A stretch of DNA of 64,000 nt from a phage. Position 1 is the stretch's first letter. Every line of letters begins with the position of its first letter. Of the stretch, positions 4,636 to 49,203 are shown one piece after another. The stretch is taken from the NCBI GenBank assembly GCA_027263115.1, contig GCA_027263115.1_3656.1; one strand, 5' to 3'. The translations under genes were made by a program, and so were the position numbers. A model generated the notes under the pieces. That model worked only from the letters and a program-made list of their open reading frames with translations. It searched no databases and had not been told where the DNA came from.

Positions 4636-6099
4636 TTAATTCCACAGTTTTCCCAAAGCTCGGGATATAATTTTTATTATACCCCTCAGTGAGGACCCAT
4701 AGAGTATCGTACTTTTCCACTTGTTGTCAACAACCTTTTGTTCAAAGTTATGCTCAAAGTATAGGTCGGTCAGGACGATGACATCTTTTGCATTAGGTAT
4801 GTTGGCATCCAGATACTCGAACACGCAAGCAGCTGTTGTGCCCCATGTTGAGTGGACCTCATAGTTGATCATCTCGTCTATGTTGCCGCGAGTGTATACT
4901 TTAACCTCTCCAACCTCAGTTGACCAACAGAACATTGTAACCTTAAACTCTTTATACAGATTGCACAATCCGGTGATTTCATTGAACATTTTCTTTAAAG
5001 TTCTTTGAGAGATCGAGCCAGAAACGTCTAAAGCCACCACAATATCTATAGTGTTTTCCGGATTACGACCAGGAACAATAACGTGCTGGTTCTTGTTTAT
5101 AGCCCCAACTTTTCGCATTGTGCTGGTCAAAGACCCAGATCGGCGACCAGGTTTTCTGTAGGTCAGTTCGGCCTTTCTTTTAGACAACATGCGTTGCTTA
5201 ATGATGTCTATATAGTTGATTACAGGTTTACCTCTGTTCTTGACAAACTCACGCACCGCCTCAGGGCAACGGCCTCCGGACGCTTGCATTGCTGCCTCCA
5301 GCATATCACCAGAGTCCTGCATGGCCTGATCTTTATCAGATTGGCTGATTACAGGTTGTGGCTGATCATACCCCATAGCCTTTCCAAGATTATCGCTGGT
5401 GCCACCGTTCCCACTCATGTGATCATCGGTTTGTCGCTTATCACTTTGAGAGTTCTCACCTTTACCGTTCTTACTTTTACCGTTATTCTGATCTCTTTGC
5501 TTATCAAGAACTGCATAAACGTTCTCAGCAATCCATCCATGAAACTTCATGTCGCAGTAGCAGCTGGCTAAGAAGCCAAAAGGCTTACCTTTCACGAACG
5601 TAGTGCTTTTCCCCTTCGGGAAGAAAACACAAGGAGGTTTGCTAAAGTCAACCACAAGGCCTGTGTTGATAACGTGATCACAAGCAATATTGAACAGTTC
5701 CGGCTCAAAGCTTTTACCACGGACTAGGTGATCACAGATAATATGCCCCACCTCATGTGACAGAAGGAAGGCCACCTCTTTCACAGATTTTGGGGAATAG
5801 AAAACTTCAGCCATCTCAAACTGCTCGTCAGTTAGAGAAGCCTTAAGAATAGCCTTGCGTTCATCAGCCAATCCCATAATGAACTCAGGACTGTAATAGA
5901 TGCGTTTATGGTCGGTTGCCATGGTGGAGCACCATGTGTGGTTTTCTACGAACTGCAACCCTGACAGTAGTGTGCCATAGAACGGCAGCTTTTCAAGGAG
6001 ATACATACGTGCAGCCTGCAACATTCTCAGGGCATCATCTTTCTGCGAGGCAATGATTTCTGAACTTCTGCTATCCATTAAAACTCCAGAAGGGGCCAT
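4636..6099 (-). CDS. vWA domain protein with N-terminal HExxH putative metallopeptidase domain
   Basis: HEVGH zinc-peptidase motif plus VVALDVSGSIS MIDAS-type vWA motif; real start may be the internal Met near 6078 preceded by GGAG. Confidence 0.65.
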   Translation of the reverse strand: MAPSGVLMDSRSSEIIASQKDDALRMLQAARMYLLEKLPFYGTLLSGLQFVENHTWCSTMATDHKRIYYSPEFIMGLADERKAILKASLTDEQFEMAEVFYSPKSVKEVAFLLSHEVGHIICDHLVRGKSFEPELFNIACDHVINTGLVVDFSKPPCVFFPKGKSTTFVKGKPFGFLASCYCDMKFHGWIAENVYAVLDKQRDQNNGKSKNGKGENSQSDKRQTDDHMSGNGGTSDNLGKAMGYDQPQPVISQSDKDQAMQDSGDMLEAAMQASGGRCPEAVREFVKNRGKPVINYIDIIKQRMLSKRKAELTYRKPGRRSGSLTSTMRKVGAINKNQHVIVPGRNPENTIDIVVALDVSGSISQRTLKKMFNEITGLCNLYKEFKVTMFCWSTEVGEVKVYTRGNIDEMINYEVHSTWGTTAACVFEYLDANIPNAKDVIVLTDLYFEHNFEQKVVDNKWKSTILYGSSLRGIIKIISRALGKLWN

Positions 6100-16418: not shown

Positions 16419-16756
16419 GTTTGTGGAGAAATATCGTTAACTACGTGTGTGGCAATCCAACTCCTGAAGAGAAGGATGTTGTGATTCACGATTTTACTAA
16501 AAGATCTCGTGAAAAAGATCTACTGCTAACAAAGGTGACTGATAAAGATCCTGCAGTAGGGGACTGGGCAGGTTTTGCGTTTACATCGGACAAATACACC
16601 TTTAACAAAGGTGACTATCTTGTTGTGGATTTTAACGAAGACATCGAGGGTGCTGAACCTTACTATCAGACCCTTATCGTTGCAGGGTGTGTTGATCTCT
16701 CTGCAGGTATGCACAGTTTGATTCTTTTTGAGCTTGACTCTGAAGACCTCCAGTAG
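16415..16756 (+). CDS. hypothetical protein
   Basis: 113-aa ORF, ATGA overlap. Confidence 0.5.
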   Translation: MSLWRNIVNYVCGNPTPEEKDVVIHDFTKRSREKDLLLTKVTDKDPAVGDWAGFAFTSDKYTFNKGDYLVVDFNEDIEGAEPYYQTLIVAGCVDLSAGMHSLILFELDSEDLQ

Positions 16757-45806: not shown

Positions 45807-46226
45807 ATGAACATTAAATCTAATAATCCGGCATATAGCTTTGATAACGCTTTTTGTCACGGTCCGGCGGCGAAAGGATTCGAAATCGATGGTAAACTAA
45901 TTATTGTCAATGTTGACGGGGAAGAGGTTGCAGTATATCCGGTGGCAGACGTAAAAAGCCGTTTACAATGCCGCATTGATGTTACCGCCTATCAGCTTGA
46001 TCCGGTCCGCATAGTTGCCCTGGTCCTGGAAGAAGAAATTAAAGCCATGCACCATAGCAACAGGTTTATTGGTGACGCTCAGGATAATATGAAGGTGTGC
46101 CGCCATAAAGTTAATGAAGTGCTTAAAGAGTACGGCTATAAAGATCTTATGATCAAACGTGATGAAAAATTCCGGTACCGTAACGACCTGGCAAATCGAA
46201 TCTATGAAATATACGAATCATTATAA
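45807..46226 (+). CDS. hypothetical protein
   Basis: 139-aa ORF with AAGAGG RBS; last gene of the rightward block. Confidence 0.55.
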   Translation: MNIKSNNPAYSFDNAFCHGPAAKGFEIDGKLIIVNVDGEEVAVYPVADVKSRLQCRIDVTAYQLDPVRIVALVLEEEIKAMHHSNRFIGDAQDNMKVCRHKVNEVLKEYGYKDLMIKRDEKFRYRNDLANRIYEIYESL

Positions 46227-46244: not shown

Positions 46245-46269
46245 AAGGGGCTTAGGCCCCTTTCTTTTT
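46245..46269 (+). terminator. intrinsic terminator
   Basis: aaggggc-ttag-gcccctt hairpin followed by TCTTTTTG. Confidence 0.7.
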
Positions 46270-46880
46270 GTCTGATCTTCCCCCTACCATAAACGGCCCT
46301 ACCTGGCAAGTGGAATAATTGACGAGCCATCAACCCCACACACTGTACAAATATACATGTAAAATAACTATTGCATAACTTTTCATTGTGTGGTAGCAGG
46401 GCTATTTTTACCCGTTTTTCCTTCCAAAATTGCACGTAATGCAGCTATTGCACAAAATTTAACCTGATGCATATCTTCAGTGTCTTGTCAACAACTAAAA
46501 ATCTTTATAAGTCATGCACTTACATAACCACAAAAGCGTGCTCTACGTGAAAAATCGAGTATAACTATAGCCGCCAGATCTCAGAATTTACGTACGCTCA
46601 CCATTCTATAGTCTGCTAAGTATTTATTCCAACCATAGAATAACGGAATAGTCAATACCTGCATAAAATAATTATTCGTGTAAACTGCATAACATAAATC
46701 AGCTTAGGTGTCAACATTTTTCGTAAACAGTCTGAAATTATCACGATGAGTTATCATAAACAGAGAAATCTTTAGTCGTCTAATGTTTACTGTACGTTAC
46801 TATACTAACTGAAATCATTAGATGACTAATAGAAAGATAAGAAATAATTAACAATACAATTATTTTATCTGTAACAATAA

Positions 46881-47166
46881 GGCAACTATGCAAACGAATG
46901 GCATGGCGCGACGGAGTCGCGACATAATATAAAAGCAGTAACCATCACCCCCGTGATAGTTTGTCTGCAATCTATTAATCAGATCATAGTTGCCTTGTAT
47001 TTAGTTAATCATGACATAACAAGCAAGGCAACTATAGATCTGCTAATAGTTGCCCTGCTTTTATATTATGTCATAGGAACGCCCGAAGGGGTGACCTAGT
47101 CACCTGGCATAGCCAGCGAAAGATTATTAACTTGGTAATAGTTATCATGCAAACGAATGGCATGGC
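46881..47166. repeat. nested inverted-repeat structure flanked by 20-bp direct repeats
   Basis: direct repeat atgcaaacgaatggcatggc at 46888 and 47147; 18-bp inverted repeat gacataatataaaagcag (46921) vs ctgcttttatattatgtc (47055); 12-bp inverted repeat atagttgccttg (46986) vs caaggcaactat (47024). Confidence 0.6.
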
Positions 47167-47177
47167 TTATCATCTCT

Positions 47178-47300
47178 GTGTAAACAGTCAATCATGTAAA
47201 CTATTAGATATGTAAACAGTAAAGGGCGTGAACAGTAAGCGAGGGAATAGTAATAGCGTGAATAGTGACAGCGTAAACAGTGACAGCGTAAACAGTCAGG
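47178..47300. repeat. iteron-like GTAAACAGT repeats
   Basis: at least six copies of GT(A/G)AA(C/T)AGT, including two tandem 15-bp units gacagcgtaaacagt at 47267-47296. Confidence 0.6.
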
Positions 47301-47400
47301 CATGTCAATTATGTCATATTGTGTCACCATTATGTCACTATTGTGTCACCAGTATGCCCAGTATGTCAATTGAGTCTAAAGTGTCAAAGGTGTCAGACAA
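47301..47400. repeat. 10-bp-periodic TGTCA tandem array
   Basis: about ten units (catgtcaatt, atgtcatatt, gtgtcaccat ...) each containing TGTCA or a near variant at helical-turn spacing. Confidence 0.6.
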
Positions 47401-47859
47401 GTTTTTCTCCTCTTTGTCAAGTGCTGCATGAAAAATTTACAAGCTTGTATGGTAGCATTTTTGCGGCCCGTTTACATTCAGTGATGTATGTATAACCCTT
47501 GTTGTGTGGGAGTTTAGACGTCTAGACGGTTGGAAGTCTGCAGGTCAATATCTAATCTATCGGCTGCTAACTATATCCCACACAAATAGTAAGAAATATA
47601 ATTGTTATATGTGTAAACAGTAACTCATGTTATCAATCCCTGTATGGATCGCCAGTGGTGCGCATAATGGGTATTATGTTAAATTGCCCGTAATGATAAC
47701 AGTTCTCACAATGATAGGTATTCTCATTCATCCACACAAAATAGGTTGCAAATGTTGTGCCACTGTGTGAACGGCCTGGCCTATTAATTTCTCTCACTGC
47801 CTCGATATTTGAGGATTGTTATAAGAATGAGAAGTATTCCCATTCCGTCCGCCTGGCAG

Positions 47860-48180
47860 CGCTCCTGTAGGTCCTGCAAGGACTCTAGCTGAAAGCTAGA
47901 CCCTTCGGGCCTCCCTGTAGGTCAGGTCAAAATCGTGGCAGAACTGAGCCTGTTCAGATATTTCTGGCTGACTCTTCAGGTCTGTGTGGGAAAAGCCAAC
48001 CTCTCCGGCGGGGCAGGGGAGGGAGGTAAATTAAAAAATTTACGTGGTGTATGAAGCGCTCTTCAGGTAAGGCAGGTATTATGTGATGAAACCCTCTTCA
48101 GGCAATGATATTTGTGGGTGTGATATTTGCTGGAAAGCCAGATATGACGGGACTCCCGGCGGGGCAGGGGTAGTACAGAC
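47860..48180. repeat. G-rich direct repeats
   Basis: CCGGCGGGGCAGGGG at 48004 and 48155; CCTGTAGGTC at 47864 and 47914; CTCTTCAGG at 47972, 48059, 48094 (also 48508 and 49156). Confidence 0.5.
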
Positions 48181-48866
48181 GGGGGAAATATGGGGATGTA
48201 GTTGGGGAAATTGATCAGGCAGGTAGAGTATGGAATATGTTACAAGTATGTTAAATATGGAGGTTGAATATCTGTAGGATTTGTGTGTAAAATCAAAGAC
48301 TTAAGTGGTGTTGTGGTATTTTCTATAAATAATTCAAGTTTAATAGGTAATATTTGCCTCTATCCACTTTGTGTGGTAAACAGATTCAGATGAGATTAGT
48401 TTACAAGTGTATACATAATATACAAATTAAAGATACAAGAAACCCCCCTCCCCCCTTCGGCTACCATTCACCTTTTCCTCTGACTGGTACTTAAACACTT
48501 ATTCAGACTCTTCAGGTTATCACCCATATATCATATGGCAGTGACTGGTGTCCTCCGGCCCCTCTTTCGTCACCCGTCCGCTTCGCCATGCTAATGCCAT
48601 AGCTAATGGTTCGGTTGTTCACCCTGTTCACTCAGGTGTATCTCTATACCCCTTCAAACCGAAGAGAACAGAAAACCCGAATTACTCGGTAAAAGAAAAG
48701 AGAAGAACTTAATTTTATCAGGATAGGCAAGAATGTCAAGGCATGACTGCTCACTAAACAAGCAAACAGTCATGTGTGGGAGGTAAGTGATTGTGGTGGT
48801 AGGAAATTTAGTTGAAAGATGTGTTATAGGTGCTTCCAGCACTTTAGCCGGGCAGCTAATTGTGTG

Positions 48867-49082
48867 TCAGTCCAGCGGTTCATCCTCTACTTCACTGAAA
48901 TCAATGTTCATGGTCTCTTCCCAACCATCGATCTCAGCACAAGAGTGGAGTTCTTTAGGGTTTACTCCCAAAGCCTCAGCAACAGAGTCTATATTTAACA
49001 CCTCTGGCAGGTATGATTCATCGAATTCAAGGTAAATCAGGCCACGAGTGTTGTCAGCTCCACCAAATATCTCTATCTTCAT
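48867..49082 (-). CDS. small acidic protein
   Basis: 71-aa ORF, last gene of the leftward block. Confidence 0.55.
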   Translation of the reverse strand: MKIEIFGGADNTRGLIYLEFDESYLPEVLNIDSVAEALGVNPKELHSCAEIDGWEETMNIDFSEVEDEPLD

Positions 49083-49203
49083 AAAATCTCCTCTGGGAAT
49101 GAAAGTGTGAACAGGGTTTTATACGTTCTAATGCACAGGAATTATACACGTTTGCCTCTTCAGGCCATGCTTTAGCATGAGGAACCTGTGTGGGCTCGGT
49201 GCT

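What the first reader, a model, noticed from the sequence alone, without database searches (positions are those of the whole stretch)
47860..48520. G-rich direct repeats with possible G-quadruplex potential and a recurring CTCTTCAGG motif
CCGGCGGGGCAGGGG occurs twice (48004, 48155) within runs of three or more Gs that could form G-quadruplexes on the plus strand; CCTGTAGGTC occurs twice (47864, 47914) flanking small hairpins including a cccUUCGggg tetraloop; CTCTTCAGG occurs five times across 47972-49156. None lies in an ORF. These could be processing or regulatory sites or parts of a structured RNA.
Basis: seen in the sequence. Interest (0 to 1): 0.45.

Follow-up and report, generated by a model that had tools for sequence, protein, structure and literature searches.

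The report
Conserved motif cluster beside phage genome end
The repeats are real and sit in a gene-free stretch just outside the 458-bp terminal repeat that marks the physical end of an rV5-like E. coli phage genome, so they are most likely DNA signals used when the genome is cut, packaged or copied, not an RNA gene.

Summary
All three motif sets exist and exceed chance. The window is an rV5-like phage (Vequintavirus). The exact 459-bp terminal repeat of phage HdK5 maps to window 47396-47853, so the finding starts 7 nt outside the genome-end cut site (CCGTCCGCC|TGGCAGC).

The CCTGTAGGTC pair only flanks a strain-specific 50-bp insertion in an indel hotspot next to the cut site. CTCTTCAGG (4-5 copies, all on the + strand), the G-rich boxes, a C6TC6 tract and a further motif, GATATTTG, are different. 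They are kept in 19 Vequintaviruses, in an uncultured lineage that matches the window in only two short patches, and partly in Septuagintavirus, which has the same cut-site motif.

The three strongest G4Hunter peaks in the 64 kb all lie here. However, G-runs are no better conserved than their loops, and no canonical short-loop quadruplex motif exists. There is no Rfam hit, no convincing fold signal and no conserved ORF.

Best reading, at about 0.37: oriented cis-acting DNA signals for end recognition and packaging. Rivals are a transcription-primed replication origin, Rho-dependent transcription insulation, and a non-coding RNA. This is a new variant of a known kind, of moderate interest.

The parts
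47396..47853 (.). Single (collapsed) copy of the direct terminal repeat (DTR) of the phage genome. Boundaries are GTGTCA|GACAAG on the left and CCGTCCGCC|TGGCAGC on the right.
   Evidence: The exact 459-bp repeat at both ends of HdK5 (MK373780.1) maps to 47391-47853. Record ends of YN3, ECP2303 and EcoIv14a_Aya fall at 47395/6, and those of bov11CS3 and bov25_3 at 47853/4 (coordinates). DTRs of 458-459 bp are reported in PMC6563267 and PMC7471380.
47851..47860 (+). Right DTR boundary motif GCC|TGGCAGC, the presumed terminase cut site.
   Evidence: The same 10-mer lies exactly at the end of the 462-bp DTR of Septuagintavirus UPEC06 and in A73 and W70. In the L145 lineage it reads GCC|TGCCTA.
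47804..47811 (+). GATATTTG copy 49 nt inside the DTR end.
   Evidence: GATATTT(G/T) lies 46-50 nt inside the DTR end in the window (-49) and in Septuagintavirus UPEC06 and A73 (-50), and 46 nt inside the putative end in L145. All copies are on the + strand.
47864..47923 (+). Strain-specific 50-bp insertion carrying three small hairpins, bounded by the CCTGTAGGTC direct repeat (47864-47873 and 47914-47923).
   Evidence: Present only in the window, navn, CM1 and ev147. Murica, B9-1 and HMD-6 have a single copy and no insert. Others carry a different insert flanked by GCAGCACTCC repeats. Hairpins.
47957..47964 (+). GATATTTC copy, 15 nt upstream of CTCTTCAGG copy 1.
   Evidence: The L145 homologue is GATATTTG, 27 nt upstream of its copy 1.
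47972..47980 (+). CTCTTCAGG copy 1, followed by TGTGTGGG.
   Evidence: Exact in 18 of 19 Vequintaviruses and also present in L145/L148 and in A73/UPEC06 after the DTR end.
48005..48026 (+). G-box 1 (CCGGCGGGGCAGGGGAGGGAGG). Its core GGG(G)AGGG is kept across lineages. An indel hotspot lies at its 3' edge.
   Evidence: The G-box reads GGGGAGGGG in L145/L148/L149 and GGCGGGAGGGTA in Septuagintavirus. G4Hunter 1.88.
48059..48067 (+). CTCTTCAGG copy 2, part of the 20-nt repeat ATGAAGCGCTCTTCAGGTAA.
   Evidence: (D11).
48086..48169 (+). Most widely conserved patch. It holds ATGAAACCCTCTTCAGG (copy 3), two GATATTTG copies 15 nt apart (48107, 48122), the palindromes CTGGAAAGCCAG and GGGACTCCC, and the start of G-box 2.
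   Evidence: This is the only part of the finding that still matches the divergent lineage by BLAST, at 75-79%. Alignments.
48149..48207 (+). G-box 2, six G-runs. The only long-loop G4 motif is 48149-48185.
   Evidence: G4Hunter 2.04. The motif is kept in 18 of 19 relatives with CA/AT/GT variation between the GGGG runs. G-runs are not less variable than loops.
48221..48442 (.). AT-rich spacer (GC about 29%) with one IHF-consensus site at 48291-48303 in an invariant stretch. It is partly hypervariable (48346-48440) and is the site of an HNH gene insertion in L145.
48443..48455 (-). C6TC6 tract, which reads G6AG6 on the - strand.
   Evidence: G4Hunter -2.0. Kept in all 19 relatives with length polymorphism. 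It reads C5TAC5-6 in L145/L148/L149. In Septuagintavirus it reads C5TC5TC5 in A73, LTH01 and W70 (C5TCTC3TC5 in UPEC06) and lies just inside the DTR end.
48508..48516 (+). CTCTTCAGG copy 4, inside the highly conserved block.
48440..48770 (-). Highly conserved non-coding block (pi about 0.01). On the - strand it holds a sigma-70-type promoter (-35 at 48739-48734, -10 at 48717-48712) and a terminator-like hairpin (48689-48677) with a U-tail.
   Evidence: conservation; promoter 11/12 with TG, plus terminator. The same layout occurs with a different sequence in L145: TTGCAA-17-TATAAT, and hairpin 7829-7811 with altered stem pairs.
49156..49164 (+). CTCTTCAGG copy 5, in the intergenic space between two - strand genes.

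Best explanation
The finding is one arm of the gene-free 'terminal region' of a Vequintavirus (rV5-like) genome.

What is there. In replicating concatemers, a single 458-bp terminal repeat (window 47396-47853) is flanked by non-coding DNA. The repeat must be cut at GTGTCA|GACAAG and at CCGTCCGCC|TGGCAGC, and it must be duplicated to give virion DNA. The CTCTTCAGG copies, the GATATTTG copies and the G-boxes lie within a few hundred bp of the right-hand cut. One GATATTTG copy sits about 49 nt inside the repeat. The C6TC6 tract lies on the opposite strand. Together they form an oriented constellation of short DNA elements.

Proposed mechanism. I propose that these elements are cis-acting DNA signals that the packaging and end-processing machinery (terminase with accessory or host bending proteins) recognises to find and process the genome end. 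The closest analogies are the repeat arrays and pac signals flanking the T7/T3 terminal repeat, lambda cosB, and herpesvirus pac1/pac2. The G-tracts may act as protein-binding or structure-prone (G4 or R-loop) elements. The CCTGTAGGTC pair is not part of the signal. It marks one of several alternative insertions in an indel hotspot created right beside the cut site.

Shown: the position relative to the terminal repeat, strand orientation, non-coding status, and conservation across lineages.

Inferred: binding by terminase and any role in cutting or packaging.
For: 1. The DTR maps exactly next to the finding (record ends, PMC6563267, PMC7471380). The same boundary motifs bound the exact 462-bp DTR of Septuagintavirus UPEC06.
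2. The region is not protein-coding. It lies between convergent operons that end in intrinsic terminators.
3. All CTCTTCAGG and GATATTTG copies in the region are on one strand, in every lineage examined.
4. All four CTCTTCAGG positions are exact in 14 of 19 Vequintaviruses; the other five lack an exact match at one copy. Motif columns vary less than background, 4/27 against 121/373, p=0.08.
5. An uncultured lineage (L145/L148/L149) matches the window by BLAST in only two patches. It still keeps 4-6 CTCTTCAGG copies, 4 GATATTTG copies, both G-boxes and the C-tract in the same order.
6. GATATTT(G/T) lies 46-50 nt inside the demonstrated or putative DTR end in all three lineages.
7. In Septuagintavirus A73, GCCTGGCAGC and CTCTTCAGG are collinear with the window, with shuffle P about 0.01-0.04.
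8. The patch 48086-48169 has paired direct repeats 15 nt apart and short palindromes, which is typical of protein-binding DNA.
Against: - There is no direct evidence that terminase binds here, and no sequence resemblance to any characterised pac or cos site.
- The distance from the cut site to CTCTTCAGG copy 1 varies from 69 to 137 nt within the genus because of the indel hotspot. That argues against a rigid cut-site complex.
- Profile search finds no significant homology between genera for this segment (nhmmer), so part of the cross-genus evidence rests on short motifs.
- Phapecoctavirus shares the flanking 139-aa gene, but none of these motifs was found in the one phAPEC8 locus examined.
- The same features (iteron-like 9-mers, an AT-rich segment, an IHF-like site, a conserved promoter pointing into the region) fit a replication origin equally well.
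- The strong GC skew fits a Rho loading site.
Confidence: 0.37

Rival explanations
1. Replication origin primed by transcription (R-loop or G-quadruplex type). The conserved - strand sigma-70 promoter (48739-48712) would send RNA through the G6AG6 tract (48455-48443), about 250 nt downstream, into the AT-rich segment (48221-48442). The G-rich + strand boxes would mirror this arrangement from the other side. G-rich RNA with a C-rich template would give a persistent hybrid that the phage's T7-like polymerase could extend, as at ColE1 RNA II or mitochondrial CSB II. CTCTTCAGG would then serve as an initiator iteron.
For: - The promoter scores 11/12 with an extended TG and has no gene to express.
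- The promoter is kept, with changed sequence, in L145 (TTGCAA-17-TATAAT). A C-tract lies about 270-285 nt downstream there too.
- The AT-rich segment has GC 0.29.
- One IHF consensus site and one relaxed DnaA box lie in an invariant stretch.
- The top three G4Hunter peaks of the window flank this segment on opposite strands.
- rV5 encodes a family-A DNA polymerase and a gp4-like primase-helicase (PMC3606486).
- From my own knowledge: C6TC6 resembles human mitochondrial CSB II (C7TC5), and G-run/C-run pairing is needed for the ColE1 RNA II hybrid.
Against: - A terminator-like hairpin lies only about 20-30 nt after the predicted start, so most transcripts may stop there.
- IHF and DnaA-box matches are at chance frequency for the window.
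- In Septuagintavirus the C-tract sits inside the DTR end, not downstream of a recognisable promoter.
- The rV5 authors found only transcription-linked skew changes here (PMC3606486).
- No initiator protein is identified.
Confidence: 0.2
2. Transcription insulation. The G-richness of the + strand simply makes - strand read-through RNA C-rich and G-poor. That would be a Rho loading (rut) zone that stops transcripts from the convergent - strand operon before they reach the terminal repeat and cut site. The individual motifs would have no separate role.
For: - GC skew reaches +0.3 to +0.59 over 47996-48370, opposite in sign to the skew of the adjacent - strand genes.
- The equivalent segment of Septuagintavirus UPEC06 is also G-skewed on the same strand (+0.12 to +0.39) despite unrelated sequence.
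- The zone lies downstream of the - strand intrinsic terminator, in untranslated RNA.
- G-runs are not more conserved than loops, so composition rather than structure may be what is kept.
Against: - A rut site needs composition only. That does not explain exact 9-mers kept in number, order and strand across lineages that otherwise match only in patches, nor the 75-79% conserved patch 48086-48169 with paired repeats and palindromes.
- Between the terminator and the C-rich zone, the - strand RNA would first be G-rich (48440-48600).
Confidence: 0.15
3. Structured non-coding RNA or RNA processing sites. The motifs would be parts of a transcript that folds or is cleaved at them.
For: - A conserved promoter and terminator pair exists on the - strand just to the right.
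- The - strand of 48430-48790 folds slightly better than shuffles, z = -2.1.
- A few stem pairs change on both sides between the window and L145.
Against: - No Rfam family matches at gathering score or at E<=5.
- 47854-48440 folds no better than shuffles on either strand, z = -0.4 and -0.7.
- The exact predicted - strand RNA 48708-48428 has z = -1.1.
- The covariation rests on one divergent lineage.
- No convincing + strand promoter lies upstream of the G-boxes.
- Frequent indels of 1-70 nt occur inside the region.
Confidence: 0.08
4. No function. The motifs would be leftovers of local duplications and compositional drift in dispensable DNA beside the genome end.
For: - The CCTGTAGGTC pair is exactly this kind of by-product.
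- The exact 15-mer duplication of the G-box occurs in only 5 of 19 relatives.
- The region tolerates many indels and even HNH gene insertions.
Against: - Nucleotide diversity of 47946-48170 (about 0.02-0.06 outside the 48020 indel spot) is as low as or lower than in the neighbouring genes (0.04-0.07).
- The motif families survive in lineages where the flanking sequence is no longer alignable.
Confidence: 0.08

Closest known systems
Concatemer junction of phages T7 and T3: a short terminal repeat flanked by arrays of short repeats (SRL/SRR) and the pacB signal (from my own knowledge; Dunn & Studier 1983, Chung & Hinkle 1990, Hashimoto & Fujisawa 1992)
   Same: A short exact direct terminal repeat is flanked on both sides by gene-free DNA full of short, same-strand repeated motifs. 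Cutting happens at fixed sequences, and the repeat must be duplicated during packaging. A transcription signal lies nearby.
   Different: There is no sequence similarity. The repeat is 458 bp against 160 bp. The motifs are dispersed 8-9-mers and G-tracts, not tandem 7-mers. The host sigma-70 polymerase is used rather than a phage polymerase. The host virus is a large myovirus. Function is untested here.
Herpesvirus pac1/pac2 cleavage-packaging signals in the terminal 'a' sequence
   Same: G/C homopolymer tracts lie around an AT-rich element close to the genome-end cleavage site. G-quadruplex motifs are enriched in terminal repeats that carry cleavage and packaging signals (PMC5117502). The terminase is of the same lineage as in tailed phages (my knowledge).
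   Different: Herpesvirus signals lie within tens of bp of the cut. Here the tracts lie 150-600 bp away in Vequintavirus, and only in Septuagintavirus does the C-tract lie within about 30 nt of the end.
Lambda cosB and SPP1/P1 pac sites: repeated small-terminase binding boxes with an IHF site (my knowledge)
   Same: Several short oriented repeats lie beside the cut site. One IHF-consensus site lies in an invariant stretch.
   Different: There is no homology. The spacing to the cut varies from 69 to 137 nt. No small-terminase binding data exist.
Mitochondrial CSB II and ColE1 RNA II R-loop origins (my knowledge; Wanrooij et al. 2010/2012, Masukata & Tomizawa 1990)
   Same: A G6AG6 tract lies in the RNA-like strand about 250 nt downstream of a promoter and next to AT-rich DNA. 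The replisome is T7-like (PMC3606486).
   Different: The polymerase is the host sigma-70 enzyme. A terminator-like hairpin intervenes. There is no evidence of R-loops or of initiation here.
Phage T5 non-coding repeat-rich region at the inner edge of the long terminal repeat, the proposed injection stop signal (my knowledge; Wang et al. 2005)
   Same: A kilobase-scale gene-free, repeat- and palindrome-rich region lies adjacent to a terminal repeat.
   Different: The T5 repeat is 10 kb and coding, and two-step injection is documented for T5 only. Nothing suggests stepwise injection here.

Membership tests
Vequintavirus genome terminus (short direct terminal repeat) | An identical sequence at both ends of end-resolved genomes maps onto the window. 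| tested here: met
   The exact 459-bp repeat of HdK5 maps to window 47391-47853 at 94% identity.
Vequintavirus genome terminus (short direct terminal repeat) | Independent records start or end at the same two boundaries. | tested here: met
   YN3, ECP2303 and EcoIv14a_Aya fall at 47395/6. bov11CS3 and bov25_3 fall at 47853/4 (coordinates). UPEC06 has an exact 462-bp DTR with the same boundary motifs.
Vequintavirus genome terminus (short direct terminal repeat) | Physical ends of this phage's own virion DNA (read starts, doubled coverage). | not testable with these tools
   No reads are available. The window holds one collapsed copy.
Canonical G-quadruplex motif | Four runs of at least 3 G with loops of 1-7 nt. 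| tested here: not met
   None in the whole window. Only 48149-48185 qualifies, with loops up to 12 nt.
Canonical G-quadruplex motif | High G4Hunter score (at least 1.5). | tested here: met
   Scores of 1.88, 2.04 and -2.0, the three highest in 64 kb. Kept in relatives: G2 at least 1.6 in all 19.
Canonical G-quadruplex motif | G-runs under stronger constraint than loops. | tested here: not met
   10/24 G-run columns are variable against 16/38 others, p=1.
Canonical G-quadruplex motif | Folding in vitro (CD, ThT, K+-dependent polymerase stop). | not testable with these tools
   Needs experiment.
Known structured RNA family (Rfam) | Covariance-model match. | tested here: not met
   0 hits at gathering score for the window. 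Only two chance-level hits at E<=5, outside the finding.
Structured RNA in general | Folding energy better than shuffles, and covariation. | tested here: inconclusive
   z = -0.4 and -0.7 for 47854-48440. z = -2.1 and -1.1 for the - strand block. A few two-sided changes appear, but from one divergent lineage only.
Terminase recognition (pac/cos-type) region | Lies beside the cut site, is non-coding, and has repeated oriented motifs. | tested here: met
Terminase recognition (pac/cos-type) region | Co-conserved with the cut-site motif across lineages. | tested here: met
   Vequintavirus, the L145 lineage and Septuagintavirus share the boundary motif and the motif set. None of these motifs was found in the Phapecoctavirus phAPEC8 locus examined.
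Terminase recognition (pac/cos-type) region | Specific binding by terminase, and a requirement for packaging. | not testable with these tools
   Needs EMSA or footprinting and a packaging or transduction assay.
Replication origin | An AT-rich unwinding segment with flanking repeated sites. | tested here: met
   GC is 0.29 at 48221-48445. Repeats.
Replication origin | Enrichment of DnaA boxes or IHF sites. | tested here: not met
   One site of each kind lies in the region, and window-wide counts are at or below chance.
Replication origin | Mapped initiation of DNA synthesis. | not testable with these tools
   Needs marker-frequency analysis or 2D gels.
Rho-dependent terminator (rut zone) | C-rich, G-poor untranslated RNA downstream of an operon. 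| tested here: met
   GC skew of +0.3 to +0.59 on the + strand makes the - strand RNA C-rich. Septuagintavirus shows the same.
Rho-dependent terminator (rut zone) | Rho-dependent 3' ends. | not testable with these tools
   Needs Term-seq with and without bicyclomycin.

The most novel reading that the evidence does not exclude
The paired G-tracts on opposite strands (G-boxes 48005-48207 on +, G6AG6 48455-48443 on -) flank an AT-rich core, and a conserved sigma-70 promoter feeds into them. Together they could form a transcription-driven R-loop or hybrid-quadruplex device beside the genome end. It would be a phage counterpart of mitochondrial CSB II, in a virus with a T7/mitochondrial-type replisome. 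It would either prime DNA replication or stall RNA polymerase to couple transcription to cutting and duplication of the terminal repeat.
Probability: 0.15. Interest if true: 0.75.

Novelty: new variant of a known kind. Interest (0 to 1): 0.45.

Why it matters
rV5-like phages are widely used as typing and therapy candidates. Their 2.6-kb 'non-coding' box has stood unexplained since the rV5 genome paper (PMC3606486). How myoviruses with short terminal repeats recognise, cut and duplicate their ends is barely studied outside T7 and T3.

This analysis places the box at the genome terminus and defines both cut-site motifs. It also gives a short list of conserved, oriented elements that can be mutated directly: CTCTTCAGG, GATATTTG, the GGGGAGGG-type boxes and the C6TC6 tract. 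If the elements are packaging signals, they would allow engineered transducing or packaging vectors and correct genome-end annotation for more than 120 deposited genomes. If the G-tracts act through R-loops or quadruplexes, this would be a rare bacterial-virus example of such structures with a defined role.

Tried and rejected
- **Rfam.** Searches at gathering score and at E<=5 found nothing relevant.
- **tRNA/tmRNA.** None found.
- **Protein-coding reading.** The ORF 48086-48214 and the MKRSSGK mini-ORF are frame-broken or lack a start codon in some relatives, and show no codon-position bias.
- **Host origin.** 47854-48800 has no match in 5,426 E. coli genomes.
- **G-box scan of IMG/VR.** The exact 15-mer gave almost only chance hits in GC-rich contigs, so the scan was wasted.
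- **CTCTTCAGG (read as CCTGAAGAG) as a promoter element.** Only two of five copies have a -10-like hexamer 9-10 nt downstream. The extra copy at 16463 lies inside a coding ORF. Rejected.
- **Chi-like protection from RecBCD.** By my own reading of the sequence the G-rich strand has the wrong orientation for the nearby end. No Chi-motif search was run. Set aside.
- **Fixed distance of CTCTTCAGG copy 1 from the cut.** The values of 119 and 120 nt in the window and UPEC06 are a coincidence. The distance ranges from 69 to 137 nt within the genus.
- **Homology between genera by profile search.** Only a DTR-internal block reaches E about 0.01.
- **Phapecoctavirus gap.** phAPEC8 shares the flanking gene, but none of the motifs was found in the locus examined.
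- **G-box 1 as a conserved hairpin with the preceding CCTCTCC.** The arms do not co-vary consistently.
Full report
**1.

The 15-mer CCGGCGGGGCAGGGG occurs exactly twice, at 48005 and 48156. No other copy exists even with two mismatches, against 0.01 expected. CCTGTAGGTC occurs exactly at 47864 and 47914. CTCTTCAGG occurs five times on the + strand (47972, 48059, 48094, 48508, 49156), plus once on the other strand at 16463. That is 6 against 0.55 expected. The copy at 16463 lies inside what reads as a protein-coding ORF and looks accidental. Three small hairpins lie between the CCTGTAGGTC copies.

The region has only short ORFs. The longest candidate is frame-broken or truncated in several relatives and shows no third-position bias.

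G-quadruplex propensity is the highest in the window. The three top G4Hunter peaks of all 64 kb are 47998-48037, 48157-48217 and, on the opposite strand, 48427-48474. No motif with loops of 7 nt or less exists, and only one exists with loops up to 12 nt.

**2. Context: the window is an rV5-like phage**

The window belongs to Vequintavirus. 122 phage records match 47000-49200 at 85-99% identity. The finding lies in a gap of about 2.6 kb without genes, between convergent gene blocks. The + strand genes end at 46226 with a terminator at 46245-46262. The first - strand gene ends at 48867. The rV5 genome paper marks this stretch only as a grey 'non-coding' box and notes a skew change there (PMC3606486).

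**3. The terminal repeat maps next to the finding**

I fetched both ends of HdK5. They share an exact 459-bp repeat that maps to window 47391-47853. The boundaries are GTGTCA|GACAAG (47395|47396) and CCGTCCGCC|TGGCAGC (47853|47854). Several other records begin or end at exactly these two points (coordinates). The finding therefore starts 7 nt outside the genome-end cut site.

**4. Conservation within the genus**

I aligned 19 sequences.

- **CCTGTAGGTC.** Directly after the cut site lies an indel hotspot. The window, navn, CM1 and ev147 carry a 50-bp insert bounded by the CCTGTAGGTC duplication. Murica, B9-1 and HMD-6 have one copy and no insert. Others carry a different insert bounded by a GCAGCACTCC duplication. 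This pair and its hairpins are therefore a strain-specific by-product.
- **CTCTTCAGG.** All four positions in the gap are exact in 14 of 19 phages; the other five lack an exact match at one copy. Motif columns vary less than the background, 4/27 against 121/373, p=0.08.
- **G-box 2.** It keeps its long-loop G4 motif in 18 of 19 phages, with CA/AT/GT changes between the GGGG runs.
- **G-box 1.** It is more variable and borders an indel hotspot.
- **G-runs versus loops.** G-run columns are not less variable than loop columns, 10/24 against 16/38.
- **Overall diversity.** Nucleotide diversity of 47946-48170 is 0.02-0.06 outside the indel spot. That is similar to or lower than the neighbouring genes at 0.04-0.07.

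**5. Conservation beyond the genus**

The flanking 139-aa gene led to Septuagintavirus (A73, LTH01, W70) and Phapecoctavirus.

*Septuagintavirus.* UPEC06 carries an exact 462-bp terminal repeat. It starts GACAAAAC and ends GTCGCCGTGCC|TGGCAGCAG, the same boundary motifs as in the window. Beyond the cut the sequence is again hypervariable, and W70 has an HNH endonuclease gene inserted there. CTCTT(C/T)AGG follows about 100-120 nt after the cut. A GGCGGGAGGGTA box follows at about 180-205 nt. A C5TC5TC5 tract sits just inside the repeat end in A73, LTH01 and W70, and UPEC06 carries an interrupted version of it. Profile search shows significant homology only for a block inside the repeat. A shuffle test of collinear exact words gives P of about 0.01-0.04.

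*An uncultured lineage.* The more telling case is a lineage from IMG/VR (L145, L148, L149). Only two patches still match the window by BLAST: 48086-48169 and 48610-48723, at 75-79%. It nevertheless keeps all of the following, in the same order:
- 4-6 CTCTTCAGG copies, all on the + strand;
- four GATATTTG copies;
- a GGGGAGGGG box and the second G-box;
- a C5TAC5-6 tract.

*A further motif.* GATATTT(G/T) lies 46-50 nt inside the demonstrated or putative repeat end in all three lineages.

*Phapecoctavirus.* None of these motifs was found in the phAPEC8 locus examined.

**6. RNA tests**

- No Rfam family matches.
- 47854-48440 folds no better than shuffles on either strand.
- The adjacent block 48440-48770 is the most conserved stretch in the neighbourhood, with pi about 0.01.
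- On its - strand this block has a strong sigma-70-type promoter, a CU-rich stretch and a terminator-like hairpin.
- The same layout recurs in L145 with a different sequence and changed stem pairs. This suggests a real, very short transcription unit or an attenuator.
- Its fold z-scores are weak, at -2.1 and -1.1.
- The covariation rests on one lineage.

**7. Interpretation**

*Shown.* The motifs are non-coding, strand-oriented, placed beside the terminal-repeat cut site, and kept across lineages that otherwise match the window only in short patches.

*Inferred.* I rank the possible functions as follows.

1. **Cis-acting DNA signals for end recognition, cutting and packaging, about 0.37.** The constellation travels with the cut-site motif, and one element sits at a fixed place inside the repeat end. 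The closest analogies are the T7/T3 concatemer junction, lambda cosB and herpesvirus pac signals. In herpesviruses, terminal repeats are also enriched in quadruplex motifs (PMC5117502).
2. **A transcription-primed origin, about 0.2.** A conserved promoter points at a G6AG6 tract and an AT-rich segment, and the phage has a T7-like replisome (PMC3606486).
3. **Rho-dependent insulation of the terminus, about 0.15.** The strong GC skew is also seen in Septuagintavirus.
4. **A non-coding RNA, about 0.08.**
5. **No function, about 0.08.**

The variable distance between the cut and the motifs, 69-137 nt, and the lack of any binding data are the main weaknesses of the leading model.

**8. Novelty**

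The non-coding box and the terminal repeat were each reported before. In the papers I read, neither the position of the box at the terminus nor the motif set was described. I class this as a new variant of a known kind, repeat-rich cis-acting DNA flanking a phage terminal repeat. It is of moderate interest. Interest would be higher if the G-tracts prove to act through R-loops or quadruplexes.

Noticed in passing
window 48440-48770 (- strand: promoter 48739-48712, hairpin 48689-48677): This is the most conserved non-coding block in the neighbourhood, with pi about 0.01 against 0.04-0.07 in nearby genes. A strong sigma-70 promoter is followed within about 15-30 nt by a CU-rich stretch (UCUUCUCUUUUCUUUU) and a terminator-like hairpin. 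The same layout, with changed sequence and stem pairs, occurs in L145 (7877-7849 and 7829-7811). It could be a small RNA of about 40 nt with an anti-Shine-Dalgarno-like seed, or an attenuator.
   Followed up: partly
window 46263-47395: The other flank of the terminal repeat has its own repeat families. GTAAACAG(T) occurs 7 times, all on the + strand (46723, 47180, 47212, 47273, 47288, 47613, 48376), against 2 copies in the other 61 kb. There are also ATGTCA(C)/TGACA units with 11-bp spacing (47317-47356) and GGCAACTAT inverted pairs (46881-47054). The stretch 47200-47390 is not alignable among relatives.
   Followed up: partly
window 47854-47923; L148, L145, JEP1, EmilHeitz homologues: The first nucleotides outside the cut site are an insertion hotspot in all three lineages. 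Two different inserts are each bounded by a 10-bp direct duplication at adjacent positions (GCAGCACTCC and CCTGTAGGTC).
   Followed up: partly
window 47079-47122 and 47901-47916; L148 (about 976-1021 in reversed orientation): The insert in L148 is 87% identical to window 47079-47122, which lies on the other side of the repeat. Window 47901-47916 is the inverted copy of 47075-47090. This hints at a small hairpin element that moves within the terminal region.
   Followed up: partly
L142 (W70) 5591-6073; L145 6767-7486: ORFs whose translations read like HNH-type homing endonucleases (judged by eye, not confirmed by a domain search) are inserted in the non-coding terminal region in two lineages, at different places: just after the cut site in W70, and in the AT-rich spacer in L145.
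   Followed up: no
window 47391-47399 and 47851-47857: Both terminal-repeat boundaries fall at the centre of short palindromes, TGTCaGACA and GCCtGGC.
   Followed up: no
L137 (Shigella phage CM1) 544-1051 and 1067 onward: The CM1 record carries two tandem copies of the terminal repeat region (window 47351-47853) in the middle of the record. This is probably an assembly artefact of the repeat.
   Followed up: no
window 48291-48303 and 48284-48292: A perfect IHF consensus (AATCAAAGACTTA) overlaps a relaxed DnaA box (TTTTACACA, - strand) at the edge of an invariant stretch. Window-wide counts of both patterns are at chance level.
   Followed up: partly
search results: Nineteen records named 'Campylobacter phage' (marked UNVERIFIED in the two I opened, A147 and C7) are ordinary Vequintaviruses at 85-97% identity. 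They are probably E. coli phages carried along in those preparations.
   Followed up: no
window 45807-46226; L139 (phAPEC8), L147: The 139-aa gene next to the gap is about 90% identical in Phapecoctavirus, a different subfamily. None of the motifs was found in the phAPEC8 locus examined. This suggests exchange of the gene but not of the terminal signals.
   Followed up: partly
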